Made by a program: the position numbers and the translations under genes. The notes under the pieces were generated by a model. That model was not told where the DNA came from and did no database searches. It saw only the letters and a list, made by a program, of their open reading frames with translations. A stretch of DNA of 64,000 nt from assembly GCF_988242995.1 (NCBI RefSeq), contig NZ_OZ547043.1. One strand, written 5' to 3'. Below, in pieces: positions 33,514 to 63,975 of the stretch. Positions within the stretch are counted from its first letter, which is position 1. The number at the start of each line of letters is the position of its first letter.

Positions 33514-33909
<396 letters not shown>

Positions 33910-42848: not shown

Positions 42849-44210
42849 TTAGCGACCAGGAAATCCCGGCGGCATCATACCCTTCATGCTTCTCATCATC
42901 TTCGCCATTCCGCCCTTCTTCATTTTCTTCATCATGCGCTGCATGTCGTCGAACTGTTTCAGAAGACGGTTAACGTCCTGTACCTGCATCCCGCAACCGG
43001 CGGCGATACGACGCTTACGTGAACCTTTGATGATTTCTGGCTTAGCGCGCTCTTTCATCGTCATTGAGTTGATGATGGCTTCCATACGCACCAGCACTTT
43101 ATCGTCCATCTGCGACTTGACGTTATCCGGGATCTGCCCCATGCCCGGCAGCTTGCCCATCAGGCTAGCCATGCCGCCCATATTTTTCATCTGGCGCAGC
43201 TGCTCAAGAAAGTCGTTGAGATCGAAGCCGTCGCCTTTTTTCAGCTTGCTGGCTAATTTCTCTGCCTGCGCGCGGTCAACTTTGCTTTCGATATCTTCGA
43301 TCAGTGACAGTACGTCGCCCATGCCGAGAATACGCGACGCGATGCGGTCAGGATGGAACGGCTCCAGCGCCTCAGTTTTCTCGCCAACACCGAGGAACTT
43401 GATCGGTTTGCCAGTGATGTGACGAATAGAGAGCGCCGCACCGCCGCGGGCATCGCCGTCCACTTTGGTCAACACTACGCCGGTAAGCGGTAACGCTTCA
43501 TTGAATGCTTTTGCCGTATTGGCCGCATCCTGACCGGTCATGGCGTCAACCACAAACAGGGTTTCAACCGGATTAATCGACGCATGGACTTGTTTGATCT
43601 CATCCATCATCGCTTCGTCAACGTGCAGACGACCAGCGGTATCCACCAGCAGCACGTCGTAGAATTTCAGTTTGGCTTCTTTCAGCGCCGCGTTAACGAT
43701 ATCTACCGGCTTCTGACCAACATCAGAAGGGAAGAAATCAACGCCCACCTGCTCTGCCAGCGTCTCAAGCTGTTTGATTGCCGCCGGGCGATAAACGTCG
43801 GCGGAAACCACCAGCACTTTCTTCTTGTGCTTCTCGCGCAGGAACTTACCGAGTTTACCAACGCTGGTTGTTTTACCGGCACCTTGCAGGCCCGCCATCA
43901 GCACGACCGCAGGCGGTTGCGCAGCCAGGTTCAGGGTCTGGTTCTCTTCGCCCATCGCCGCAACCAGTTCGTTACGGACGATTTTGACGAACTCCTGCCC
44001 CGGCGTCAGGCTCTTATTAACTTCATGACCAACCGCTTTCTCTTTTACGCGATTGATAAACTCACGCACTACCGGCAGAGCGACATCCGCCTCCAGCAGC
44101 GCCATGCGCACTTCGCGCAGCGTATCTTTTACGTTGTCTTCAGTGAGGCGTCCACGGCCACTGATATTGCGCAGCGTGCGCGACAAACGATCGGTTAAAT
44201 TATCAAACAT
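42849..44210 (-). CDS. ffh: Signal recognition particle protein Ffh
   Basis: 453-aa ORF with NG-domain GTPase motifs (GLQGAGKTT, DTAGR) and Met-rich C-terminal M domain. Confidence 0.95.
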   Translation of the reverse strand: MFDNLTDRLSRTLRNISGRGRLTEDNVKDTLREVRMALLEADVALPVVREFINRVKEKAVGHEVNKSLTPGQEFVKIVRNELVAAMGEENQTLNLAAQPPAVVLMAGLQGAGKTTSVGKLGKFLREKHKKKVLVVSADVYRPAAIKQLETLAEQVGVDFFPSDVGQKPVDIVNAALKEAKLKFYDVLLVDTAGRLHVDEAMMDEIKQVHASINPVETLFVVDAMTGQDAANTAKAFNEALPLTGVVLTKVDGDARGGAALSIRHITGKPIKFLGVGEKTEALEPFHPDRIASRILGMGDVLSLIEDIESKVDRAQAEKLASKLKKGDGFDLNDFLEQLRQMKNMGGMASLMGKLPGMGQIPDNVKSQMDDKVLVRMEAIINSMTMKERAKPEIIKGSRKRRIAAGCGMQVQDVNRLLKQFDDMQRMMKKMKKGGMAKMMRSMKGMMPPGFPGR

Positions 44211-52006: not shown

Positions 52007-52369
52007 GGGGCTGATTCTGGATTCGACGGGATTTGCGAAACCCAAGGTGCATGCCGAGGGGCGGTTGGCCTCGTAAAAAGCCGCAAAAAATAGTCGCAAA
52101 CGACGAAAACTACGCTTTAGCAGCTTAATAACCTGCTTAGAGCCCTCTCTCCCTAGCCTCCGCTCTTAGGACGGGGATCAAGAGAGGTCAAACCCAAAAG
52201 AGATCGCGTGGAAGCCCTGCCTGGGGTTGAAGCGTTAAAACTTAATCAGGCTAGTTTGTTAGTGGCGTGTCCGTCCGCAGCTGGCAAGCGAATGTAAAGA
52301 CTGACTAAGCATGTAGTACCGAGGATGTAGGAATTTCGGACGCGGGTTCAACTCCCGCCAGCTCCACCA
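52007..52369 (+). ncRNA. ssrA: tmRNA (SsrA / 10Sa RNA)
   Basis: 363 nt from GGGGCTGATTCTGGATTCGACGGG to ...CCCGCCAGCTCCACCA; contains the tag reading frame region; tRNA-like 3' end. Confidence 0.96.
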
Positions 52370-52483
52370 CTTGCTCTTCCGGATACGTCCGGAGAAATCC
52401 TGAAAGCCCGCATGGCGCAAGCCCTGTGGGCTTTTTTGTGTCTACCGTTGTCCGAGGATATCCAGCTGAGTCCAGTGATTATT

Positions 52484-52531
52484 GGTATACGTTTAGGTAT
52501 ACGGTAAGATGTATACCTAAATGCGTATACC
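52484..52531. promoter_or_regulatory. Repeat cluster at the int 5' end (GTATAC-containing repeats with an 11-bp inverted repeat); candidate Int arm-type sites or int operator
   Basis: TTTAGGTATAC-N8-GTATACCTAAA perfect inverted repeat (about 52492-52521) abutting the ATG at 52521, plus two more GGTATAC/CGTATACC copies. Confidence 0.45.
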
Positions 52532-53753
52532 AATTCATGAAGGAACGGCCAAAGTGGCAAGAACGACACGTCCCCTGACCAACACTGAAGTTCTGCGCGC
52601 TAAAGCGTTAGAAAAGGATCTAACGTTGCATGATGGCGATGGCCTTTTTCTGCTCGTTAAAACGAACGGTAAGAAATTATGGCGTTTCCGCTACCAAAAG
52701 CCAGTAACAAAACAGCGGACCATGATTAGTTTAGGAACCTTCCCTGCACTATCCTTGGCTGAAATCAGAAATGTGCGAGCTAAGTATCTTTCCTTGTTAG
52801 CCAAGGGGATCGATCCACAAACACACAATGAACAAGTCACACAACAACAACAAATTGCAGTAGAAAGTATTTTTTCAAACGTTGCTAAAAATTGGTTTGC
52901 CATTAAACGCAATAGCGTTACACCTGATTATGCAAAGGATATATGGCGATCCTTAGAGAAGGACATTTTCCCTGCTATCGGAGAGATTCCTGTTCAGGAA
53001 ATAAAAGCACGTATATTAATTGAAGCCCTAGAACCAATTAAGGCCCGCGGTGCACTCGAGACTGTTCGTCGTTTGGTGCAACGTATTAACGAAATTATGA
53101 TCTACGCTGTCAATACCGGATTAATTGAGGCTAATCCTGCGTCAGGTATTGGCATGGCTTTTGATAAACCCAAAAAGCAAAATTTGCCAACGCTGCGGCC
53201 AGAAGAATTACCTAAACTGATGCATTCTCTAGTAATGTCAAACCTGTCTATTCCTACTCGTTGTCTGATCGAATGGCAACTACTGACACTCGTTCGCCCT
53301 TCAGAAGCCTCTGGCGCCCGCTGGGATGAGATCGATTTAGAATCCAAACTTTGGAGAATTCCTGCTGAAAGGATGAAAGCAAAGCGCGAACATATAGTTC
53401 CTTTATCATCTCAAGCTTTAATTATTCTTGAAGTAATGAAACCCATAAGTGCTCATCGTGAACATATATTTCCTAGCAGGAATAACCCTCAAGAACCGAT
53501 GAATAGCCAAACAGCAAATGCAGCATTAAAACGCATAGGGTACGGAGGAAAGTTAGTTGCACATGGACTCCGTTCTATTGCCAGCACTGCATTAAATGAA
53601 GCCGAATTTAATTCTGACATTATTGAATCAGCTCTTGCACATGTTGATAAAAATGAGGTGAGAAGAGCATATAACCGCTCCACTTATCTTGATAAACGTA
53701 AAGAGATGATGGCTTGGTGGGGAAATTTTATATATAAAAATAATTCATTATAA
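52521..53753 (+). CDS. int: Tyrosine recombinase (phage integrase, P4/CP4-57 family)
   Basis: 410-aa ORF with C-terminal catalytic region (HGLRSIAST...LAHVD...RRAYNRSTYLDKR); real start may be the downstream GTG (about 52551, reading VARTTRPLT). Confidence 0.88.
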   Translation: MRIPIHEGTAKVARTTRPLTNTEVLRAKALEKDLTLHDGDGLFLLVKTNGKKLWRFRYQKPVTKQRTMISLGTFPALSLAEIRNVRAKYLSLLAKGIDPQTHNEQVTQQQQIAVESIFSNVAKNWFAIKRNSVTPDYAKDIWRSLEKDIFPAIGEIPVQEIKARILIEALEPIKARGALETVRRLVQRINEIMIYAVNTGLIEANPASGIGMAFDKPKKQNLPTLRPEELPKLMHSLVMSNLSIPTRCLIEWQLLTLVRPSEASGARWDEIDLESKLWRIPAERMKAKREHIVPLSSQALIILEVMKPISAHREHIFPSRNNPQEPMNSQTANAALKRIGYGGKLVAHGLRSIASTALNEAEFNSDIIESALAHVDKNEVRRAYNRSTYLDKRKEMMAWWGNFIYKNNSL

Positions 53754-53764
53754 AAGGTATTACA

Positions 53765-54799
53765 ATGAATATTGATTCTATAAAACTTCATTTACAAAAT
53801 TTTTTCACAAATAATCCAACTGTTCTTATCGGTTCTGGCCTCTCTCTCGGTGAGGGGATTCCAGGTATGAAAACATTGGGAGAACATCTTAATACAACTA
53901 TCCCCAAATTAGTAAGCGGGGATCTTATAAGAGAATGGGGTATCATAAGTTCCAAACTAAATAATGGTATGGGACTTGAAGATGCCATGGCATTTCTTAA
54001 AGATGAAAGTGAACTTATCCCATTAATTATTCAGCACACCGCAGATCTTATTTTAAAGCATGAAAATACTGTAATATGCTCTGTAATCAATGGAGAAAAA
54101 AATCTAGCATTTACATCTTTATTGAATCACTTAACTTTTAATCAAAATGAATTGATAATTATAACTCCAAACTATGATAGACTAATTGAAATAGCATGTG
54201 AAATTGCTGGTCTAGAAATTTCAACAGGATTTATCAATAGTTATCATTGTATAAATAATCCTGAAGTTGAGTTAGATAAATTCAAAATCACCCACTCTAT
54301 CAAAACCACACGAGGTAAATCTACAGTTCAAATTAGAACTAAAAAACACGTTAAAATATTTAAACCTCATGGTAGTCTTGATTGGTTCAAGGCTGACGAT
54401 AAAATTATCAGGACCAGCTTTCAAAATAAACATAAAAGATTAATTATTACACCAGGTACAAGTAAATTCAGAGCTGGATATCAGCAGCCTTTTGATTGGC
54501 ATAGAGAAAAAGCAAACCATTATATCAAAAGAGCAAAATCACTATTAATTATTGGCTATGGGTTTAATGATGAGCAGTTAGAAGTACATTTGAAATCAAA
54601 AATACGTGAAAAAATACCTGTTTTATTAATGACATATGAATTGACATCAAACGCTCAAAAAATATGTGATGATAATCCTTCTATAACATATGTTATTGCA
54701 GAAGGAAACAATTCCATCGTTTGTATCGATGGCATTAAATATAAAATCGAAAAGAATATTTGGTCTTTAAATGAGTTTGTTAAAGAGGTACTTAAATAA
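53765..54799 (+). CDS. SIR2-like NAD+-binding protein (predicted NADase effector); cargo gene 1
   Basis: 344-aa ORF. Gly-rich NAD-binding loop VLIGSGLSLGEG, TPNYD motif (catalytic Asn codon 54170-54172), KPHGS motif (His codon 54367-54369) and second Rossmann motif IIGYGFND. Low GC; stop overlaps next gene's start (TAATG). Confidence 0.8.
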   Translation: MNIDSIKLHLQNFFTNNPTVLIGSGLSLGEGIPGMKTLGEHLNTTIPKLVSGDLIREWGIISSKLNNGMGLEDAMAFLKDESELIPLIIQHTADLILKHENTVICSVINGEKNLAFTSLLNHLTFNQNELIIITPNYDRLIEIACEIAGLEISTGFINSYHCINNPEVELDKFKITHSIKTTRGKSTVQIRTKKHVKIFKPHGSLDWFKADDKIIRTSFQNKHKRLIITPGTSKFRAGYQQPFDWHREKANHYIKRAKSLLIIGYGFNDEQLEVHLKSKIREKIPVLLMTYELTSNAQKICDDNPSITYVIAEGNNSIVCIDGIKYKIEKNIWSLNEFVKEVLK

Positions 54800-56583
54800 T
54801 GGAATATTACGTCATTAACACTGATGAAACATGCTTTATCGGACGAATCGCAAATGTTGATACCGATCGTGCTATTATCATTTCAGAGTCTCCAGAGATC
54901 ATACAAGAACTAACCGTTTTTGACTTGGTTGCTATTGAAGGCAATACCCCCACAGAGTTTCTTGTTGGTATCATTGAAAAAGTAAAACGCTCTATTGGAG
55001 AAATACAAACTATTGATACTGAAGAAAATATTGAAGATGACAGTGAAAAAGATTTCGATAATATCTTCCAAACTTATTCTATCGATCATGATATTCTTCA
55101 AGTAGCTCTTATCGGCACTTTCTGGGAGGTTTACGGGGATAGAAGGAAAATTTTTAAAAGAGGAGCACAATATTTTCCAAAAGTTGAAAAACAAGCATTT
55201 CTTATAAAAAAAGACAGTCTTGAGAAATTAATGTCGGCAGTCGACAATGATACTCCTGATGAGCTAAAACTCATACTAGGCAACTATGGAAATACCAATT
55301 CACGAGCAGTTGCAAATGGGGATAAATTATTTCAGAGACATGCTGCCCTATTGGGGAGTACTGGTTCAGGTAAAAGTTGGACAGTTGCGTCATTACTAGA
55401 ACAAGCCTCAAAATTAAAATACAACAATATTGTACTTTATGATCTTCATGGTGAATACAAAACTTTATCTGATACACATAATAAATCGAACCGCCCGAGC
55501 ATAGCCGATTATTTTAAAATTGCAAGCCCAGGAAATATCGACGATGTAAATAGTATTTATGTACCTCATTGGTTATTAAACAAAGAAGAAATGCTATCAC
55601 TGTTGTTAGATAGAAGCGATAGCAATGCACCTAATCAGGCAGCAAGATTTAGCTACCACGTGAGAGAGCTAAAAAAAGAATACATCACACACAACAGATT
55701 AATACACTTAGAAGATTGTTTGACTGTTGATGCTCCAATACCCTACTCTATCGAGGATCTTATTAGCAGACTGCACGATGATGATCAAGGTATGAAAAAA
55801 GGTACTAATAATAAAGAAATAAAAGGTGATTGGAATGGAAAACTAACAAGATTCATAAGCAGGTTAAGAACAAAAGTAGACGACAAGAGGAACTGTTTTC
55901 TATTCTCAAATAAACCAGAACACAACCAATATGATTGGTTGGAGAAATACGCTTGTAAAATTTTAAAATCAGATAGCACAGATCATGGCATTAAAATAAT
56001 TGATTTTTCTGAAGTTCCTTCAGATATTATGCCTATTGTTATTGGTGTATTGACCAGATTTTTATACAACGTCCAATTTTGGAGATGTGAGACCGAACGA
56101 ACCCCTATAGCATTCGTTTGTGACGAAGCTCATATTTATTTACCCGCTAAGGATACCACTGAGGCTGAAACAAAAATATCCTTATCAATATTCGAGAAAA
56201 TTGCTAAAGAAGGCAGAAAGTACGGAGTATCTTTATTAGTCGTCAGCCAAAGACCTTCTGATGTTAGCAGAACAATACTAAGTCAATGTAATAACATAAT
56301 TTCTCTCAGACTAAGTAATTATAGAGATCAACAGGTAGTTAGTCGGTTAATGCCTGATTCATTGAGTTCATTAACATCCATACTACCAATTCTTGATACT
56401 GGGGAAGCAATAGTTCTTGGCGACTCTGTTCTATTACCAGCTAGAATAAAATTGAATCCACCAACACTCAAGCCCGATAGCGCAACCAGAGCTTTTTGGA
56501 ATGAGTGGGGGGCAATTGAAGCAAAAGAAATCTCTATAGCAAATGCTGTTGAATCACTCAGGAGACAATCTCGTAATCGCTAA
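54799..56583 (+). CDS. HerA/FtsK-type ATPase; cargo gene 2
   Basis: 594-aa ORF. Walker A GSTGSGKS (Lys codon 55372-55374), Walker B FVCDEAH (56122-56133), and KEGRKYGVSLLVVSQRP arginine-finger region typical of HerA. Translationally coupled to the SIR2-like gene. Confidence 0.8.
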   Translation: MEYYVINTDETCFIGRIANVDTDRAIIISESPEIIQELTVFDLVAIEGNTPTEFLVGIIEKVKRSIGEIQTIDTEENIEDDSEKDFDNIFQTYSIDHDILQVALIGTFWEVYGDRRKIFKRGAQYFPKVEKQAFLIKKDSLEKLMSAVDNDTPDELKLILGNYGNTNSRAVANGDKLFQRHAALLGSTGSGKSWTVASLLEQASKLKYNNIVLYDLHGEYKTLSDTHNKSNRPSIADYFKIASPGNIDDVNSIYVPHWLLNKEEMLSLLLDRSDSNAPNQAARFSYHVRELKKEYITHNRLIHLEDCLTVDAPIPYSIEDLISRLHDDDQGMKKGTNNKEIKGDWNGKLTRFISRLRTKVDDKRNCFLFSNKPEHNQYDWLEKYACKILKSDSTDHGIKIIDFSEVPSDIMPIVIGVLTRFLYNVQFWRCETERTPIAFVCDEAHIYLPAKDTTEAETKISLSIFEKIAKEGRKYGVSLLVVSQRPSDVSRTILSQCNNIISLRLSNYRDQQVVSRLMPDSLSSLTSILPILDTGEAIVLGDSVLLPARIKLNPPTLKPDSATRAFWNEWGAIEAKEISIANAVESLRRQSRNR

Positions 56584-56608
56584 TAAAAATATTATCTAGC
56601 AACGCGCA

Positions 56609-56627
56609 GTGCTTTCCCCGCCTCGCC
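56609..56627 (-). other. P2/P4-type cos site (19-nt cohesive end sequence)
   Basis: Window reads GTGCTTTCCCCGCCTCGCC, the exact reverse complement of the P2/P4 cohesive end GGCGAGGCGGGGAAAGCAC as recalled; flanked by GC-rich dyads. Confidence 0.8.
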
Positions 56628-56791
56628 CGCCCGCTTTGCGGGGCGGTTTCAGTGCAGTTGCACTGACACGCTCAGGCCGCGCCGGGAATGGCGCGGTCTG
56701 CAGAAAATGAGGCAGGAAAACGCATGCAAAGCCATGCACCTTATCGATGCATGGCTTTTTTCAGTAAAAACGGGCGGATTTTCGGGGAATT

Positions 56792-57364
56792 TTACACAGA
56801 CTGATGTGATGCCAGTTGCGCACTTTTACGCGAAAAAATCATGTTCTGCGCAGGAGTGAATTTTTCACGGCTGTCATCCACCGAAGCCGCGTCAGGCCTG
56901 AATCCGATGGTCGTTAAAATGTCGCTATCCTGTGCGGAATAATTAATTTTTTCACCCTTCGCAAGCCAGGACTGGAGGGCTTCACGCAGGGCATCTGTGG
57001 CACGCTGTATGGCACAGTTTCGGGCAATGGCCGTCAGCTCACTGTAGCCCATCAGCTCCGGTGCCAGTGCCGCCGCCAGTGCTGTGCCGTGCTGCTGCAT
57101 AAAATCATTCAGCCGGTCGCGGATGCTGATGTGCTGAACGGCTTCATGCGAACGAATATAACGACCGGCGGCCTGATTCACCTGCCATTTTCTGACTTCG
57201 ATAATATTGCGTAATTCGTCCAGGCGACTGACGTTTCTGCCTTCTCCTGACAGAAGCCGCAGGTATTCCTGTTCGGCCGCTGCCAGCTCATTTTTGCGTT
57301 GCAGCCATGCTGCTTTGTTATTCTGACAGGTGTCAAAGGCCTGCTGTAAGGCTGTGCTTTCCAT
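56792..57364 (-). CDS. psu: P4 Psu-like protein (polarity suppression / capsid decoration)
   Basis: 190-aa ORF, the same length as P4 Psu, in the conserved psu-delta-sid order next to cos. Confidence 0.75.
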   Translation of the reverse strand: MESTALQQAFDTCQNNKAAWLQRKNELAAAEQEYLRLLSGEGRNVSRLDELRNIIEVRKWQVNQAAGRYIRSHEAVQHISIRDRLNDFMQQHGTALAAALAPELMGYSELTAIARNCAIQRATDALREALQSWLAKGEKINYSAQDSDILTTIGFRPDAASVDDSREKFTPAQNMIFSRKSAQLASHQSV

Positions 57365-57437
57365 CGTTATCTCTTTCTCATCATGCTGAAGAATAAAAAT
57401 ACGGTGTGCGGCGACGGCCGGTGTTAACCGGCAGCCC

Positions 57438-57938
57438 TCATTCCAGACGCAGCGAATATGATTGTGTTTTTAACCGTACTGGCGGCAGTTCCTGTTTTTC
57501 ATGCAGGCGTTCTGCCAGTTCGTCCGGCGTGACCGGGCGGACAATGAAACGGTTGATGGTCTGAAGCGTTTTAAACACCAGACCACAGCCCGGATCCGTG
57601 CACACATAAAAACGCTCGGTGACTTCCTGAGACAGACGCCGCGATGTTCTTGACAGTGCAAGGCCTTTACATCTCCGACAACAATATCCGGTAACAAGCA
57701 TTCTTTTCGGCCGTTTCATACTGCCGGAGGCTGACGTCAGTGAATCGCGGTATCTCTGTTTGCCTGAAATGTATTCCATTCCTGAATCTTTACAGTCAGA
57801 GAAAAAGCTTTCACTCGCTTCAAATGTCGCAGAGCAATAAATATTCCGGCACTGTGCAATCATTATCTTGGTGCCATCGTCCATGAAATGTGCGCGACGG
57901 GTGTGAGCAACATGTCCACACGACGGGCAGTAAATCAT
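57438..57938 (-). CDS. delta: P4 Delta-like late-gene activator (tandem Ogr-type zinc fingers)
   Basis: 166-aa ORF with two C-x2-C...C-x4-C zinc-finger units (MIYCPSCGHVAH...CRNIYC and YCCRRCKG...CTDPGC). Confidence 0.85.
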   Translation of the reverse strand: MIYCPSCGHVAHTRRAHFMDDGTKIMIAQCRNIYCSATFEASESFFSDCKDSGMEYISGKQRYRDSLTSASGSMKRPKRMLVTGYCCRRCKGLALSRTSRRLSQEVTERFYVCTDPGCGLVFKTLQTINRFIVRPVTPDELAERLHEKQELPPVRLKTQSYSLRLE

Positions 57939-58669
57939 GACAGCAGCCCTCTGGCCTTAAGCTCTGCTCCCTGCTGGTCTATTTTGTCCTGCCACACCTT
58001 GCGCTGTGCCGGTGTGCCTGCCACCTCATAATCCATGTGCGGGAGTGTTGCCGCTGACAGTCCGGCCAGCCGGAGAACCGGCTCGCCGGTGAGGCTGATT
58101 TGCATCTGTTTTATTTTCTGTTCCAGCGATGATTTCACCTGCTGCATGACAGCCTTTTCCGGCGCGACGTAGCCCTGATGGCCGGTGGTGTTGGCGAGCG
58201 GATTTTCCTGTACCAGGATGCTCAGATGCATTGCCCGGACAAGCGCCTCACAGGTTTCATTCAGGGCGTGTTCCAGCTCATGCTCTGCATACAGACTCAG
58301 CAGGTGATGATGTGCCTTCCGGTAGGCGGTGGCCGTGCTGTCACACGCCCCTTTCAGGCGTTCACATTCAAAATTCAGCACCACGGCCAGATTGTCATAT
58401 TCCTGTACCAGCTCCCGGCGTGCCACGCGCTCAATGTGGCGCTGTTTCAGCTCATCGCTCAGGACACCACCGGCTGCACGAAAGGCCGTGCGCCAGTCGT
58501 CAGCGTCGTTTCCGTCGGCCTGCGTCAGCGCATTTTTTTCCTGCTCTGCCCGTTCAATGGCCGTGATGGTCTCATCCATCAGGCGGGCGTTCTCAAGATG
58601 AGCGGCTCTGGCCTTTTCCAGTTGTGCCAGCGCGGGTTGCAGATATTCAGGGATGGTGTTGTCAGACAT
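57935..58669 (-). CDS. sid: P4 Sid-like external scaffold (capsid size determination) protein
   Basis: ORF track gives 266 aa; start trimmed to MSDNTIPEYLQPALAQLEK (244 aa, the P4 Sid length) with RBS; coiled-coil-rich. Confidence 0.75.
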   Translation of the reverse strand: MSDNTIPEYLQPALAQLEKARAAHLENARLMDETITAIERAEQEKNALTQADGNDADDWRTAFRAAGGVLSDELKQRHIERVARRELVQEYDNLAVVLNFECERLKGACDSTATAYRKAHHHLLSLYAEHELEHALNETCEALVRAMHLSILVQENPLANTTGHQGYVAPEKAVMQQVKSSLEQKIKQMQISLTGEPVLRLAGLSAATLPHMDYEVAGTPAQRKVWQDKIDQQGAELKARGLLS

Positions 58670-58703
58670 TTTCCGGCTCCTCGTCACTTCAGGTTGAGAA
58701 AAT

Positions 58704-58759
58704 TGTGACGTACACCGGACAACAACACGACGCATTGCAGATGTGCCAGCCCTGACACA
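58704..58759. promoter_or_regulatory. Two TGT-N12-ACA dyads; candidate Delta/Ogr activator sites for the divergent late promoters (Psid / PLL)
   Basis: TGTgacgtacaccggACA (58704-58721) and TGTgccagccctgacACA (58742-58759) match the P2/P4 late-promoter activator element TGT-N12-ACA. Confidence 0.55.
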
Positions 58760-58838
58760 GGAGACTCATCCTCAGACCGGCAAGCCAGGAAAAGGTCGCA
58801 GGAAAAACCGGCTTACTGTTTGTTTTTTTATATTTTAC

Positions 58839-58942
58839 TGTTCACCTCTGTTCACCTTAAGAAAAAAGATAAGTAATACAGTAAGTTAAAGGATGAACAA
58901 TCGCAGTAATGACTGTTCACCGTCTGTTCACCACTGTTCACC
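58839..58942. repeat. Candidate P4-type replication origin (ori) iteron cluster
   Basis: Five direct copies of TGTTCACC (58839, 58849, 58914, 58925, 58935) plus a degenerate inverted copy; about 4.8 kb from the crr repeats, as in P4. Confidence 0.7.
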
Positions 58943-59221
58943 CGCTCATGGACTTTTTGTGCTGTTTACTACTGTTTGTTTTTATTAATTCGCCGGGAAT
59001 GAATAAGAAGAAACGATTTGTATTTCACTATAAAAATTACGAATTGCTTTAAGTGGCTTTAAATGACTTTAAGTGGAGATGAACAAAAAATACACAAGCA
59101 TTGTAAGGCTGCCGGAACAAATCCCCCCTGTTGCGTCTGCCGAAAATATTCACAAAATAAAGCGCTACCCGAAGCCGGACGGACTTATCCGGTGCTGTAT
59201 GGACATTAACGAGGTAGCCCG

Positions 59222-59488
59222 ATGCAATCTGTTTTTTCTTCCCCGTCTCCCGCCCCAGTGACGCCACTGATGCCGCTGCCGGACATCACGCAGGAGCGTT
59301 TTTTACGTCTGCCGGAAGTGATGCACCTGTGCGGCCTGTCACGCTCGACCATCTATGAACTTATCCGTAAGGGGGAATTTCCGCCGCAGGTGAGTCTTGG
59401 CGGTAAAAATGTGGCCTGGCTGCACTCTGAAGTCACCGCATGGATGGCCGGGCGCATTGCCGGACGCAAACGGGGGTACGACGCATGA
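59222..59488 (+). CDS. vis: AlpA/Vis-family helix-turn-helix regulator
   Basis: 88-aa ORF with AlpA-type HTH ([27 protein letters not shown]), the length of P4 Vis. Confidence 0.75.
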
Positions 59489-60084
59489 TGATGCCCGCTC
59501 TGCAAAAAGTCCCTTTTTCTGGCTTGCCTTTTTCCGGCATTTGCGGATATAGTTTTTCCGCTGCCGCAAAATCGGCAGCCGGGCGTGGAAACCCGAGTAT
59601 GTTATCGGCGACATATGACGCGCCATGCGTCTTTTTTTGTGTCGCAATCAACGCCACAGAGCGCCAGATTATGGTGTGGTGTGTGGTCAGTCGAGCAAAT
59701 GGCACTCCGTGCATTCTGCCCGCGTCCGCTCATTATACCGCAGAGTCAATGGTAGCTCAGGCGGGGCAGCCTCCGCGCTGGCCGGTTTCCGATAACGCCG
59801 GTATTTCCACCCCCGTCTGGGCTATCGCCATCGAGCGTGGAAACTCCGGCGATAGCGTCATTTACGCTGTTATCGGAGGTTGCCTTATGGCTACGACCCT
59901 TATCCCCTCACACCCTGAATTTGTCTTTGTGTTTGCGGCTGTCCGTCGCGCAGACCGTCATCCCCGTATCTGTATGCTTCGCACCGTCGCCGGTGATGAA
60001 CGCAGCGCCCGCCGTTCCCTTGTCCGTGACTATGTGCTCTCCCTTGCTGCCCGTCTGCCGGTGGTGGAGGTGTCCCGTGCGTAA
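59485..60084 (+). CDS. Hypothetical protein, P4 orf199-like (coding status uncertain)
   Basis: 214-aa ORF trimmed to an internal Met to give 199 aa; Ala/Pro-rich and GC-rich, so it could instead overlie the RNA-based immunity locus. Confidence 0.35.
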
Positions 60085-60364
60085 TAAAAAAGCCCCTCAG
60101 ACCGTCTCAGCACGTCATGACGCCCGTGAACACCTCAGCATTGAGGCTTACCATAAGCTCAACCGCGCCAGCGCCGTATCCCAGTTTGTTGGGGGTGATT
60201 TGATTCACCGTGAACTCTCCGGCCTGCATCAGCTCTACATTCCGCATATTTTCAGCTACCTGAATGAAGATATTGATTTTGTGCTGAATGAGCTGAAAGC
60301 CAAAGGCCTGTGCCGCGATTTTCTCGCCCAGCAGAAAGACCGGGGAGACAGGACGCATGTTTGA
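60077..60364 (+). CDS. Hypothetical protein, P4 epsilon-like (possible helper-prophage derepressor)
   Basis: About 95 codons from a putative GTG start within ORF 59837-60364 ([25 protein letters not shown]...); size and position match P4 epsilon. Assignment is by analogy only. Confidence 0.4.
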
Positions 60365-60812
60365 TTTTCCCCAGCCCGGTGAGATTTACCGTTCTGCCGG
60401 TTTTCCCGATGTGGCCGTGGTCGGCATTCTGGAAGACGGTATTCCGTGGGAAATGCCGTACCGCTGCCCGGACATTGTCTGGAACCCGTACCGCCGTAAA
60501 TTCAGTATCCTTGTGCGTATCCTCGCTGACGGGCGCACCACAGACATCCCGCTGGGGCGTTTTCTGCGGGAATTTACCTGTGACCGTCCTGACCTGTTTA
60601 AACGCAGCCCCGTAAACCGGCATGCGGTACTGAAAGAAATGGCCGGAGACCCGGAATTACAGAAATGGCGGGAGAAATATCTGGATATTTACCCGCAGGA
60701 CCCTGTTCCGGTCAGCCGGGCGGCACCGGTGGCGCGGGAATGGCGGGAAATTCCCCGCACGGAGCCTGACCCGGAAACCACCCCGGATAACAGTTACCGC
60801 AATTATCTGTAA
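60357..60812 (+). CDS. Hypothetical protein, P4 orf151-like
   Basis: 151-aa ORF whose start overlaps the previous ORF's stop; position upstream of alpha as in P4. Confidence 0.6.
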   Translation: MFDFPQPGEIYRSAGFPDVAVVGILEDGIPWEMPYRCPDIVWNPYRRKFSILVRILADGRTTDIPLGRFLREFTCDRPDLFKRSPVNRHAVLKEMAGDPELQKWREKYLDIYPQDPVPVSRAAPVAREWREIPRTEPDPETTPDNSYRNYL

Positions 60813-60947
60813 TTAAAAAACGACACCCGAAAAATTAAATGTGCGTATTCGCGCAGGGATACGCACGTCTTCAGGAGACGCAGATATGCCTTATCAGTTA
60901 ATGCAACCGGCACGGAATGCAGTCATCTGTCACAGGGAGGAAAACAA

Positions 60948-61268
60948 ATGAAAACACCCTTACCGCCCGTCTTACGCGCTGCCCTTTACCGTCGCGCTGT
61001 CGCCTGTGCCTGGCTGACCGTGTGCGAACGTCAGCACCGCTACCCGCATCTCACCCTTGAGTCACTGGAGGCGGCCATCGCCGCTGAGCTGGAAGGCTTT
61101 TATCTGCGCCAGCACGGTGAGGAAAAAGGGCGTCAGATAGCCTGTGCCCTGCTGGAAGATTTAATGGAATCCGGCCCCCTGAAGGCCGCGCCGTCGCTGT
61201 CCTTTCTCGGGCTGGTTGTGATGGATGAACTCTGTGCCCGTCACATAAAAGCGCCGGTACTGCACTGA
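60948..61268 (+). CDS. Hypothetical protein, P4 orf106-like
   Basis: 106-aa ORF directly upstream of the alpha gene. Confidence 0.55.
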
Positions 61269-61282
61269 AGGAGAACAACACC

Positions 61283-63616
61283 ATGAAAATGAACGTAACC
61301 GCCACCGTCAGCCATGCGCTCGGCCACTGGCCGCGTATTCTCCCGGCGCTGGGGATTCAGGTGCTGAAGAACCATCATCAGCCCTGTCCGGTCTGTGGCG
61401 GGAGTGACCGCTTCCGTTTTGATGACAGGGAGGGGCGCGGCACCTGGTACTGCAATCAGTGTGGTGCCGGTGACGGCCTGAAACTGGTTGAAAAGGTGTT
61501 TGGTGTCTCCCCGTCCGACGCGGCCGCAAAGGTGGCTGCCGTGACCGGCAGTCTGCCCCCGGCTGACCCGGCAGTGACGGCTGCCGCCGTTGCTGAAACA
61601 GACGCTGCCCGGAAGAACGCCGCCGCACTGGTACAAACCCTGATGGCAAAAACCCGTCCCGGAACCGGTAACGCCTACCTGACCCGCAAGGGCTTTCCCG
61701 GCCGGGAATGCCGGATGCTGACCGGCACACACAGAGCCGGTGGCGTGAGCTGGCGCGCCGGTGACCTTGTGGTGCCACTGTATGACGACAGCGGCGAACT
61801 GGTTAACCTTCAGTTAATCAGTGCTGACGGCCGTAAGCGCACCCTGAAAGGCGGACAGGTCAGGGGCACCTGTCACACCCTTGAAGGACAGAATCAGGCC
61901 GGAAAACGTCTGTGGATAGCGGAGGGATACGCGACCGCACTTACCGTGCATCACCTGACCGGTGAAACGGTGATGGTGGCGCTTTCTTCCGTGAATCTCC
62001 TTTCTCTGGCCAGCCTTGCCCGGCAGAAGCATCCGGCCTGTCAGATTGTCCTTGCTGCTGACCGTGACCTCAGCGGTGACGGCCAGAAAAAAGCCGCCGC
62101 AGCCGCAGATGCGTGTGAAGGTGTTGTTGCCCTGCCGCCGGTCTTCGGTGACTGGAATGATGCCTTCACGCAGTACGGCGGGGAAGCCACCCGTAAGGCC
62201 ATTTATGATGCCATCCGGCCACCGGCTGAAAGCCCGTTCGACACCATGAGCGAAGCGGAGTTTTCCGCCATGAGTACCAGCGAAAAGGCCATGCGTATCT
62301 ATGAGCATTACGGCGAGGCGCTCGCGGTCGATGCCAACGGCCAGCTTCTGTCCCGCTATGAAAATGGTGTCTGGAAGGTGCTGCCGCCACAGGACTTTGC
62401 CCGGGATGTGGCCGGGCTGTTTCAGCGTCTGCGAGCGCCGTTCTCCTCCGGGAAGGTGGCCTCCGTGGTGGACACCCTGAAGCTGATTATTCCGCAGCAG
62501 GAAGCCCCCTCCCGCCGCCTGATTGGCTTTCGTAACGGCGTGCTCGACACGCAGAACGGCACGTTCCACCCGCACAGTCCGTCACACTGGATGCGCACCC
62601 TGTGCGATGTGGATTTCACCCCGCCGGTGGACGGTGAAACGCTGGAAACCCACGCCCCCGCCTTCTGGCGCTGGCTTGACCGTGCCGCCGGTGGCCGTGC
62701 GGAAAAACGCGACGTGATTCTGGCTGCACTGTTTATGGTGCTGGCAAACCGCTACGACTGGCAGCTCTTTCTGGAGGTGACCGGTCCCGGCGGCAGCGGC
62801 AAAAGTATCATGGCCGAAATCGCCACCCTGCTGGCCGGGGAGGATAACGCCACGTCGGCCACCATCGAGACGCTGGAATCCCCGCGTGAACGTGCCGCGT
62901 TAACTGGCTTCTCACTGATACGCCTGCCGGATCAGGAAAAATGGAGCGGCGACGGTGCCGGACTCAAGGCCATCACCGGCGGCGATGCGGTGTCCGTTGA
63001 CCCGAAATACCGGGATGCGTACTCCACGCACATCCCGGCGGTGATTCTGGCCGTGAACAATAACCCGATGCGCTTCACCGACCGCAGCGGCGGCGTGTCA
63101 CGCCGGCGGGTGATTATTCACTTCCCGGAACAGATAGCCCCGCAGGAGCGCGACCCGCAGCTTAAGGACAAAATCACCCGCGAGCTGGCGGTCATCGTGC
63201 GTCACCTGATGCAGAAGTTCAGCGACCCGATGCTCGCCCGGTCACTGCTTCAGTCCCAGCAGAACTCAGACGAGGCACTGAACATCAAACGGGATGCCGA
63301 CCCGACGTTTGATTTTATCGGCTATCTGGAAACCCTGCCGCAGACCAGCGGCATGTATATGGGGAACGCCAGTATCATCCCGCGTAATTACCGTAAATAC
63401 CTCTATCACGCCTATCTGGCCTACATGGAGGCAAACGGCTACCGGAATGTACTCAGTCTGAAAATGTTCGGACTGGGGCTGCCGGTGATGCTGAAAGAAT
63501 ACGGGCTGAATTACGAGAAGCGCCATACCAAACAGGGGATACAGACCAACCTGACGCTGAAAGAAGAAAGCTACGGCGACTGGCTGCCAAAATGTGACGA
63601 CCCTGCAACAGCCTGA
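61283..63616 (+). CDS. alpha: P4 alpha-type replication protein (zinc-finger primase - TOPRIM - helicase - ori-binding)
   Basis: 777-aa ORF (P4 alpha length). N-terminal zinc finger CPVCGGSDRFRF...WYCNQCG, TOPRIM-like acidic patch (AADRD), helicase Walker A (TGPGGSGKS). Confidence 0.88.
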   Translation: MKMNVTATVSHALGHWPRILPALGIQVLKNHHQPCPVCGGSDRFRFDDREGRGTWYCNQCGAGDGLKLVEKVFGVSPSDAAAKVAAVTGSLPPADPAVTAAAVAETDAARKNAAALVQTLMAKTRPGTGNAYLTRKGFPGRECRMLTGTHRAGGVSWRAGDLVVPLYDDSGELVNLQLISADGRKRTLKGGQVRGTCHTLEGQNQAGKRLWIAEGYATALTVHHLTGETVMVALSSVNLLSLASLARQKHPACQIVLAADRDLSGDGQKKAAAAADACEGVVALPPVFGDWNDAFTQYGGEATRKAIYDAIRPPAESPFDTMSEAEFSAMSTSEKAMRIYEHYGEALAVDANGQLLSRYENGVWKVLPPQDFARDVAGLFQRLRAPFSSGKVASVVDTLKLIIPQQEAPSRRLIGFRNGVLDTQNGTFHPHSPSHWMRTLCDVDFTPPVDGETLETHAPAFWRWLDRAAGGRAEKRDVILAALFMVLANRYDWQLFLEVTGPGGSGKSIMAEIATLLAGEDNATSATIETLESPRERAALTGFSLIRLPDQEKWSGDGAGLKAITGGDAVSVDPKYRDAYSTHIPAVILAVNNNPMRFTDRSGGVSRRRVIIHFPEQIAPQERDPQLKDKITRELAVIVRHLMQKFSDPMLARSLLQSQQNSDEALNIKRDADPTFDFIGYLETLPQTSGMYMGNASIIPRNYRKYLYHAYLAYMEANGYRNVLSLKMFGLGLPVMLKEYGLNYEKRHTKQGIQTNLTLKEESYGDWLPKCDDPATA

Positions 63617-63649
63617 CCCACCTGACCGGCATCTGCCGGTCTTTTTTTA

Positions 63650-63975
63650 TCCCTGAATCCCCCGAAGGTGAACAATCCAGTGTTCACCCTTCACCGTATA
63701 TTCACCCGTTATCACACTGAAATTAAAAGAGAAAAACGAAAGGTGAACAGTGTGAACAATCAAATCAAAAAAAACTTTTTTTCTTCCTGTGTGATTTTCA
63801 GCACGGGAAATTAATCCCCTGCACAAGTCACACCGGCAGAATGCCGGAGGTGAAGAATCGAATGTTCACCCTTCACCCATTATTCACCACCTATCACTCT
63901 GAAATAAAAGGAGAAAACAGAAAGGTGAACAGTGTGAACAGTTCTTTCGAAAAAAAATTTTTTTCCTGTACGATA
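63650..63975. repeat. crr-like cis replication region: two direct repeats of about 130 bp, period about 185 bp, each carrying TGTTCACC/GGTGAACA iterons
   Basis: Repeat 1 (about 63660-63790) and repeat 2 (about 63845-63970) align nearly base for base (ggtgaacaatccagtgttcaccc... versus ggtgaagaatcgaatgttcaccc...); located just 3' of alpha. Confidence 0.75.

What the first reader, a model, noticed from the sequence alone, without database searches (positions are those of the whole stretch)
56584..56791. Exact 19-nt P2/P4 cohesive-end sequence between the cargo operon and psu
GTGCTTTCCCCGCCTCGCC at 56609-56627 is the reverse complement of the P2/P4 cos cohesive end as I recall it. It marks the packaging site, shows the element depends on a P2-type terminase, and fixes the cargo operon at the cos-proximal end of the packaged genome.
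Basis: partly seen in the sequence, partly recalled or inferred. Interest (0 to 1): 0.55.

Follow-up and report, generated by a model that had tools for sequence, protein, structure and literature searches.

The report
P4 satellite packaging (cos) site
The 19-base sequence is exactly the known cohesive-end (cos) packaging site of phage P2 and its satellite P4, in its usual place in a P4-type satellite prophage that carries a SIR2-HerA anti-phage operon, so the reading is correct but the biology is already described.

Summary
Observation confirmed. Window 56609-56627 (minus strand) reads GGCGAGGCGGGGAAAGCAC. This is identical to nt 1-19 of P4 (X51522) and of P2 (NC_001895, annotated "cosL; left cohesive end"). 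It is the only match in the window.

The surrounding 55-bp core is 51/55 identical to P4 and 50/55 to P2. Window 56628-63963 aligns to P4 4291-11624 at 97.9% in one piece. All P4 genes from psu to alpha are intact.

On the other side of cos, homology stops 6 nt past the 19-mer. P4's gop/beta/cII and int are replaced there by:
- a SIR2-HerA defence pair, at 33.8% GC against 55.4% for the P4 arm;
- a different integrase (35.6% identity to P4 Int) that targets ssrA.

A near-identical element in E. coli EC21GDE043 is 11,756 bp, against 11,624 bp for P4. That size fits the small P4 capsid.

The cos-adjacent defence hotspot between psu and int, with SIR2+HerA among its cargoes, was described by Rousset et al. 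2022. The shared 55-bp P2/P4 cos was described by Ziermann and Calendar 1990.

Cleavage by a P2-type terminase is inferred, not shown. No helper prophage lies in the window, and attR lies about 110 nt beyond its end.

Verdict: a real and correctly interpreted feature that is already known, so interest is low.

The parts
56609..56627 (-). 19-nt cohesive-end sequence GGCGAGGCGGGGAAAGCAC, the nicking region of cos. Inferred nicks lie between 56628 and 56627 on the minus strand and between 56608 and 56609 on the plus strand, giving 5' 19-nt overhangs.
   Evidence: Identical to P4 nt 1-19 and to P2 nt 1-19, annotated cosL. Invariant in all 9 P2-like and P4-like cos sites aligned. Nick positions are inferred from where the linear P4 and P2 records begin and end.
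56602..56656 (-). [quoted passage not shown]
   Evidence: 51/55 identical to P4 and 50/55 to P2; P4 against P2 is 52/55. Short matches in P2-like prophages cover window 56603-56662 (loci). [quoted passage not shown]
56628..56791 (-). P4 right-end non-coding region between psu and cos. It holds a GC-rich hairpin next to the nick (56629-56648), inverted repeats at 56646-56669 and 56673-56700, and a terminator-like hairpin at 56728-56758 followed by T6 on the + strand.
   Evidence: 97.6% identical to P4 11461-11624. Inverted repeats; folds of both strands. The terminator scan found none because the loop is 9 nt.
56584..56601 (.). Element-specific junction between the HerA stop codon and the conserved cos core; the start of the variable hotspot.
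   Evidence: No similarity to P4 or P2 beyond TGCGCG. Matches across E. coli genomes begin at window 56603 or 56600.
54799..56583 (+). HerA-type ATPase, the second gene of the SIR2-HerA defence cargo.
   Evidence: PADLOC HerA PDLC04105, E = 9e-210, full length. Annotated 'ATP-binding protein' in the sibling genome.
53765..54799 (+). SIR2-family protein, the first gene of the SIR2-HerA defence cargo. Its stop codon ends on the same base (54799) where the HerA ORF starts.
   Evidence: PADLOC SIR2 PDLC04082, E = 1e-124, full length.
52521..53753 (+). Tyrosine integrase of the element. It is not the P4 integrase and its target is ssrA.
   Evidence: PHROG 1 integrase, E = 2e-67. 35.6% identity to P4 Int. 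It lies directly downstream of the tmRNA gene.
52007..52369 (+). ssrA (tmRNA) gene. Its 3' end is the attL junction, and element DNA starts at 52370.
   Evidence: ARAGORN and Rfam RF00023 at 295.8 bits. Comparison of the empty site with attL and attR.
52481..52503 (+). Candidate integrase arm-type site ATTGGTATACGTTTAGGTATACG. A second copy lies next to attR in the sibling element.
   Evidence: Their role as arm sites is inferred from their position on both sides of the att core.
56792..57364 (-). psu (polarity suppression and capsid decoration protein).
   Evidence: 98.4% identical to P4 Psu over 190 aa. PHROG 6366, E = 2e-100.
57438..57938 (-). delta (activator of helper late genes).
   Evidence: 98.2% identical to P4 Delta over 166 aa.
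57935..58669 (-). sid (capsid size determination).
   Evidence: 98.0% identical to P4 Sid over 244 aa.
59222..59488 (+). orf88, the vis/alpA-type excisionase or regulator.
   Evidence: 97.7% identical to P4 ORF88. PHROG excisionase families.
59547..59832 (+). P4 immunity region: targets of the CI RNA (c4-a1b1), isrK, and the C4-family CI RNA.
   Evidence: Rfam RF03163, RF01394 and RF01695, all above their gathering scores.
60077..63616 (+). epsilon, orf151, orf106 and alpha (primase-helicase).
   Evidence: 98.9-100% identical to the P4 proteins over their full lengths.
63662..63963 (-). crr repeats (cis replication region). This is where homology to P4 ends.
   Evidence: The blastn alignment to P4 stops at P4 4291, which is window 63963. 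The internal 120-bp repeat is detected (P4 annotation).

Best explanation
This is the cos packaging site of an integrated P4-type phage satellite of about 11.76 kb, inserted at the 3' end of ssrA in Escherichia coli. The inferred cycle follows P4.

1. When a P2-like helper is present and active, the element excises (int plus the orf88/vis function) and replicates as a circle (alpha, ori, crr).
2. The helper's terminase (gpM/gpP in P2) recognises the ~55-bp core at 56602-56656.
3. It makes staggered nicks 19 nt apart, between 56628/56627 on the minus strand and between 56608/56609 on the plus strand.
4. The linear genome is packaged into small capsids built from helper proteins under the direction of Sid and Psu.

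In that linear genome, psu is at the right end. The SIR2-HerA operon is at the left end, with its stop codon 25 bp from the duplex end, followed by int and att.

The site also marks the boundary between the conserved P4 arm and the variable anti-phage hotspot.

Shown here: sequence identity, genomic context, gene intactness and unit length. Inferred: cleavage, the helper's identity and the mobility of this copy.
For: - The 19-mer is exact and is the only match in the window. It equals P4 nt 1-19 and the annotated P2 cosL.
- The circular-junction alignment shows the flank on the psu side is 98/100, 49/50 and 47/50 identical to P4. The core block is conserved in P2 as well.
- Window 56628-63963 is 97.9% identical to P4 4291-11624 in a single 7,338-bp alignment.
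- Psu, Delta, Sid, ORF88, Epsilon, ORF151, ORF106 and Alpha are all full length at 97.7-100% identity. The cI-region ORF is full length at 87.7%.
- The P4 immunity RNAs are detected.
- The element encodes no terminase, portal or capsid gene, and the window holds no homologue of the P2 portal protein.
- A sibling element is 99.8% identical over int-cargo-cos. It is bounded by ssrA and glaH, and 709 genomes have the empty site. Its length is 11,756 bp against 11,624 bp for P4.
- The same cos block occurs in 2,249 of 5,426 complete E. coli genomes, always next to psu or next to the P2-type portal gene.
- Literature: P4 uses the P2 terminase and shares the core cos with P2, and the defence hotspot is directly adjacent to cos and includes SIR2+HerA (PMC9122126; PMC8628076; PMC9594776).
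Against: - No experiment here shows cleavage or packaging.
- No helper prophage lies in the window.
- attR lies beyond the window end. In the sibling element its core is an imperfect copy of the ssrA 3' end: TTCAAACTCCGCCAGCCA against TTCAACTCCCGCCAGCTCCACCA. Excision efficiency is therefore unknown.
- Two positions, 56650 and 56652, differ from all 8 other cos sites aligned. Both lie inside the conserved flank.
Confidence: 0.9

Rival explanations
1. The cos sequence is intact, but this copy is a fixed, no longer mobilisable island. It would be a domesticated defence island, and the site a relic with no present packaging function.
For: The attR core in the sibling element matches ssrA imperfectly and is 4 nt shorter. 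Two substitutions lie in the otherwise invariant flank. No helper is seen in the window. The exact int-cargo-cos arrangement occurs in only 1 of 5,426 complete genomes.
Against: Every P4 gene is full length at 88-100% identity, and the P4-derived arm from cos to crr is 97.9% identical to a laboratory-active satellite. That leaves little time for decay. The unit length of 11,756 bp is still capsid-compatible. The exact 73-nt cos variant recurs in at least 6 other genomes, so it is a circulating allele rather than a private lesion.
Confidence: 0.09
2. The site is the cos of a P2-like helper prophage rather than of a satellite.
For: The 19-mer and the 55-bp core are shared with P2-like phages.
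Against: In P2-like prophages cos lies between the portal gene and the old-type hotspot. Here it lies between psu and the integrase-proximal cargo, inside a nearly complete P4 genome. The window has no portal homologue.
Confidence: 0.005
3. The 19-mer is a chance match in a GC-rich intergenic hairpin region whose role is only transcription termination between converging genes.
For: The region holds several hairpins, and two operons converge on it.
Against: An exact 19-mer is expected about 5e-7 times per window. Only 0.03 matches are expected even at up to 3 mismatches. The homology extends over 7.3 kb of P4.
Confidence: 0.005

Closest known systems
cos site of satellite phage P4 (X51522 / NC_001609)
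   Same: - Identical 19-nt cohesive end.
- 164 bp on the psu side are 97.6% identical.
- Same position between psu and the integrase-proximal accessory genes.
- The 7.3-kb arm from cos to crr (psu to alpha) is 97.9% identical.
   Different: - Homology on the left-end side stops after TGCGCG. The first base is T as in P2, where P4 has C.
- gop, beta and cII are replaced by SIR2-HerA.
- Int is only 35.6% identical, and the element sits at ssrA (P4's own site is a tRNA-Leu gene, from general knowledge).
- Two substitutions, at 56650 and 56652, lie in the conserved flank.
cos site of phage P2 and P2-like (Peduovirus) prophages
   Same: Identical 19-mer and a ~55-bp core, 50/55 identical. It is presumably recognised by the same terminase.
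   Different: Outside the core there is no similarity. In P2 the conserved portal/terminase genes lie on the left-end side of cos and the variable old/tin hotspot on the right-end side. That is the mirror image of the P4 arrangement.
P4 psu-int defence hotspot (Rousset et al. 2022, PMC9122126)
   Same: A variable anti-phage cargo lies directly next to cos, between psu and int. SIR2+HerA is explicitly listed among the known systems found there.
   Different: Nothing of substance. This is one instance, combined with an ssrA-type integrase, and it is rare among complete genomes (1 of 5,426).
Lambda-type cos sites (cosN, cosB, cosQ)
   Same: Staggered nicking by terminase that gives 5' cohesive ends, with recognition sequences concentrated on one side of the nick.
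   Different: - 19-nt rather than 12-nt ends, and an unrelated sequence.
- From general knowledge of P2 (not tested here), the preferred P2/P4 substrate is a monomeric circle rather than a concatemer.

Membership tests
P2/P4-type cos site | 19-nt cohesive-end sequence GGCGAGGCGGGGAAAGCAC | tested here: met
   Exact match at 56609-56627 on the minus strand. Identical to P4 nt 1-19 and to the annotated P2 cosL.
P2/P4-type cos site | Conserved ~55-bp core around the cohesive end, shared by P2 and P4 | tested here: met
   51/55 identical to P4 and 50/55 to P2. The 9-sequence alignment shows the same conserved block. The 55-bp figure comes from PMC9594776, which cites Ziermann and Calendar 1990.
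P2/P4-type cos site | Cleavage by P2-type terminase (gpM/gpP) into 5' 19-nt overhangs, and packaging of the DNA | not testable with these tools
   Needs sequencing of virion DNA ends or an in vitro terminase assay.
P4-like satellite (core set of Moura de Sousa and Rocha 2022: int, psu, delta, sid, alpA, epsilon, alpha) | All seven core components present, in P4 order | tested here: met
   The order is int 52521, psu 56792, delta 57438, sid 57935, orf88/alpA 59222, epsilon 60077, alpha 61283. Criteria taken from PMC8628076.
P4-like satellite | No structural or terminase genes of its own, and a unit length near 11.6 kb | tested here: met
   Only P4 homologues plus int, SIR2 and HerA. The sibling element is 11,756 bp from attL to attR. 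The HerA hit to a PHROG 'terminase large subunit' family (E = 2e-17) covers only residues 433-519. I read it as ATPase-domain similarity, not as a terminase.
P4-like satellite | Intact attL and attR that allow excision | tested here: inconclusive
   attL is at the ssrA 3' end (52369/52370). attR lies about 110 nt beyond the window end. In the sibling locus L004 its core is imperfect.
SIR2-HerA anti-phage system | Adjacent SIR2-domain and HerA-ATPase genes in one operon | tested here: met
   PADLOC SIR2 E = 1e-124 and HerA E = 9e-210, both full length. The SIR2 ORF ends on the base where the HerA ORF starts, 54799.
SIR2-HerA anti-phage system | Protection against phage infection | not testable with these tools
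   Needs a plaque assay.

The most novel reading that the evidence does not exclude
The clean mosaic could record a single exchange of the whole left arm of the linear genome (cargo, int and att), with the cos cut as one breakpoint. The element is 97.9% identical to P4 from crr to the cos nick and unrelated from 6 nt past the cohesive end onward. That pattern would support the speculation of Rousset et al. that terminase-generated or freshly injected cohesive ends seed recombination and drive turnover of defence cargo.

A smaller variant concerns the two flank substitutions at 56650 and 56652. They lengthen a palindrome beside the nick and might tune cos to a particular helper terminase.
Probability: 0.25. 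Interest if true: 0.35.

Novelty: already known. Interest (0 to 1): 0.1.

Why it matters
This matters mainly for annotation.

- It fixes the ends and orientation of the packaged genome.
- It identifies the island at ssrA as a P4-type satellite that a P2-like helper could mobilise.
- It explains why a low-GC SIR2-HerA defence operon sits where it does: the known cos-adjacent hotspot.

It does not open a new question. The cos sequence, its sharing between P2 and P4, and the hotspot next to it are all published.

Tried and rejected
- **Second cos or helper prophage in the window.** I found none: the 19-mer search at up to 3 mismatches gave one hit, and tblastn with the P2 portal protein found nothing.
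- **attR inside the window.** I looked for exact repeats of the ssrA 3' end and found none. The sibling genome shows that attR lies just past the window end, with an imperfect core.
- **Consensus terminator scan of the intergenic region.** It found nothing. The obvious hairpin at 56728-56758 has a 9-nt loop, outside the tool's 3-8 nt limit, and RNA folding does recover it.
- **The original cos paper** (Ziermann and Calendar 1990, PMID 2265763). It is not held in the library, so exact deletion-mapping limits of cos could only be quoted second-hand.
- **PMC4856287** holds nothing on the P2 packaging substrate.
- **HerA as a satellite-encoded terminase**, prompted by a PHROG 'terminase large subunit' hit. 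I rejected this. The match covers only about 90 residues, the full-length match is to defence HerA models, and the gene sits in the variable hotspot.

Full report
**1. The observation**

The + strand at 56609-56627 reads GTGCTTTCCCCGCCTCGCC. Its reverse complement is GGCGAGGCGGGGAAAGCAC. That is the only match in the window even with three mismatches allowed, where shuffled sequence gives 0.03 expected matches.

The first 19 bases of the P4 record X51522 are the same sequence. So are the first 19 bases of P2 NC_001895, which that record annotates as "cosL; left cohesive end" and repeats at 33575-33593 as cosR.

The interval 56584-56791 is precisely the gap between a 594-aa ORF ending at 56583 (+ strand) and a 190-aa ORF at 56792-57364 (minus strand).

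**2. The cos region in detail**

I joined the ends of the linear P4 and P2 records into circular junctions and aligned them with the reverse complement of the window.

- On the psu side of the 19-mer, the window matches P4 at 98/100, 49/50 and 47/50 positions in successive blocks.
- On that same side, P2 matches only in the last ~30 bp.
- On the other side, only (T/C)GCGCG is shared. After it the three sequences are unrelated.
- A 55-bp block (29 bp + 19 bp + 7 bp; window 56602-56656) is 51/55 identical to P4 and 50/55 to P2. P4 against P2 is 52/55. [quoted passage not shown]

I then aligned nine cos sites: the window, P4, P2, three P4-like and three P2-like E. coli prophages. The 19-mer is invariant across all nine, and the same core is conserved (loci).

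The record of P2-like Yersinia phage P37 starts exactly at the base that corresponds to window 56609.

From where the linear records begin and end, I infer two nicks. One lies between 56628 and 56627 on the minus strand, the other between 56608 and 56609 on the plus strand. They would leave 5' 19-nt overhangs.

**3. The element around it**

Window 56628-63963 aligns to P4 4291-11624 in one 7,338-bp piece at 97.9% identity.

| P4 product | Status in the window |
|---|---|
| Psu, Delta, Sid, ORF88, Epsilon, ORF151, ORF106, Alpha | full length, 97.7-100% identical |
| cI-region ORF | full length, 87.7% identical |
| Int | only 35.6% identical |
| gop, beta, cII | absent |

Rfam finds the P4 immunity RNAs (C4 family, c4-a1b1 and isrK) at 59547-59832.

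Left of cos the genes are as follows.

- SIR2-family gene at 53765-54799: PADLOC E = 1e-124.
- HerA gene at 54799-56583: PADLOC E = 9e-210.
- Tyrosine integrase at 52521-53753.
- The tmRNA gene ssrA at 52007-52369.

The cargo is 33.8% GC. The P4 arm is 55.4% and the chromosome 50.8%. The rest of the window is ordinary E. coli chromosome, from the rpoE region through rrnG to smpB. That reading rests on a related genome that I aligned to the window only from position 42871 onward.

**4. Boundaries and size**

One complete genome, E. coli EC21GDE043, carries the same int-SIR2-HerA-cos-psu stretch at 99.8% identity. The element there lies between ssrA and glaH.

A composite of ssrA plus the sequence after the element matches as one uninterrupted piece in 709 genomes. 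These are empty sites.

| Site | Sequence at the junction |
|---|---|
| attB (empty site) | ...CAACTCCCGCCAGCTCCACCA\|ATCATGATTGG |
| attL | the intact ssrA 3' end, then element DNA from window 52370 |
| attR (element-side core, then host flank) | TTCAAACTCCGCCAGCCA, then ATCATGATTGG |

The attR core is an imperfect copy of the ssrA 3' end. The element is 11,756 bp, against 11,624 bp for P4. About 11,630 bp of it lie in the window, and attR falls about 110 nt beyond the window end.

A 23-nt repeat, ATTGGTATACG(N)TTAGGTATACG, lies near both ends: at window 52481-52503 and next to attR in the sibling. It is a candidate integrase arm site.

**5. How it most likely works**

The mechanism follows established P4 biology, as summarised in PMC9122126 and PMC6893505. 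P4 has no structural or packaging genes. It uses the P2 terminase and P2 capsid proteins, and it shares only the core cos with P2.

The element here is P4 in all of those functions. It encodes no terminase, portal or capsid protein, and the window holds no P2 portal homologue. The likely sequence has four steps.

1. The element excises.
2. It replicates through alpha.
3. A helper terminase recognises and nicks cos.
4. The ~11.8-kb genome is packaged into Sid-directed small capsids.

In the linear genome, psu is at the right end. HerA is at the left end, 25 bp from the duplex terminus, followed by SIR2, int and att.

Identity, context, gene intactness and size are shown here. Cleavage, the helper's identity and excision competence are inferred.

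**6. Comparison with what is known**

Rousset et al. 2022 (PMC9122126) described this situation.

- They found it in 26% of E. coli genomes.
- SIR2+HerA is listed among the known systems present there.
- P2-like phages have a second hotspot next to their own cos.

Moura de Sousa and Rocha 2022 (PMC8628076) define the P4-like family by seven core genes. All seven are present here in P4 order.

My survey agrees with both papers. The cos block occurs in 2,249 of 5,426 complete E. coli genomes. In nearly every listed match, similarity begins at window 56603 or 56600. The neighbouring cargo differs from element to element: AIPR, gop/beta and HEPN in the three P4-like loci I inspected.

One detail is visible in the loci. 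Relative to the polarity of cos, the P2 hotspot (old-type genes) and the P4 hotspot lie on opposite sides.

**7. Rivals**

- **Relic cos in an immobilised island.** This cannot be excluded. The attR core is imperfect, no helper is in view, and there are two substitutions in the conserved flank. It is unlikely given the near-identity to active P4 and the intact gene set. The exact 73-nt variant also recurs in at least six other genomes.
- **cos of a P2-like helper, or a chance match.** The gene content and the alignments refute both.

**8. Verdict**

The feature is already known. What is specific to this window is a P4 backbone joined to an ssrA-type integrase and a SIR2-HerA cargo, an arrangement seen in only 1 of 5,426 complete genomes. 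That makes it one more member of a well-described pattern. Interest is low.

Noticed in passing
window 56650 and 56652: Two substitutions (T>C and A>G on the + strand) lie inside the conserved flank of cos. The other 8 aligned P2/P4-type sites all read TTTTAATGCA there. The changes turn TAATGCA-GT-TGCACTG into a perfect 7-nt palindrome, CAGTGCA-GT-TGCACTG. The exact 73-nt variant is present in at least 6 other complete E. coli genomes, so it is a circulating allele. Its effect on terminase recognition is unknown.
   Followed up: partly
window 56603 (boundary); 53765-56583 against 56628-63963: Composition breaks sharply at cos. The SIR2-HerA cargo is 33.8% GC and int is 41.4%, while the P4-derived arm is 55.4%. 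Homology to P4 ends at two points: 6 nt past the cohesive end and at the start of crr (P4 4291). The whole left arm therefore looks swapped as a block.
   Followed up: partly
window 52370 (attL); L004 21240-21265 (attR), about 110 nt beyond the window end: The element sits at the 3' end of ssrA and uses an integrase only 35.6% identical to P4 Int. The attR core in the sibling element is an imperfect and shorter copy of the ssrA end: TTCAAACTCCGCCAGCCA against TTCAACTCCCGCCAGCTCCACCA. This may bear on excision. 709 complete genomes have the empty site.
   Followed up: partly
window 52481-52503; L004 21163-21185: A 23-nt repeat, ATTGGTATACG(N)TTAGGTATACG, is present near both ends of the element. 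Partial inverted copies lie nearby. These are candidate arm-type integrase binding sites.
   Followed up: partly
L010, L011, L012 (P2-like prophages) compared with window 56584-56791: Relative to the polarity of the cohesive end, the variable hotspot of P2-like phages (old-type ATPase/nuclease genes) lies on the right-end side of cos. The P4 hotspot lies on the left-end side. The two cos-adjacent hotspots are therefore mirror images.
   Followed up: partly
window 54799-56583: Besides its full-length match to defence HerA models, the HerA protein hits a PHROG family labelled 'terminase large subunit' (E = 2e-17, residues 433-519) and an FtsK/SpoIIIE-like family. I read this as similarity between ATPase domains. 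An automatic annotator could mislabel the gene as a terminase sitting next to cos.
   Followed up: partly
window 56728-56763: An 11-bp perfect hairpin, AAAGCCATGCA...TGCATGGCTTT, is followed by T6 on the + strand and preceded by A-rich sequence. It is conserved in P4 and looks like a bidirectional terminator between psu and the operon reading in from the cargo side. The consensus scan missed it because its loop is 9 nt.
   Followed up: partly
window 57935-58735: The mechanical ORF for sid is 266 aa, from an upstream ATG. P4 Sid and the RefSeq annotation of the sibling element give 244 aa, starting at 58669.
   Followed up: yes
window 59547-59832: Rfam detects isrK, c4-a1b1 and a C4-family antisense RNA in the P4 immunity region, all above their gathering scores. 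The overlapping cI-region ORF is the least conserved part of the P4 arm, at 87.7% amino-acid identity.
   Followed up: no
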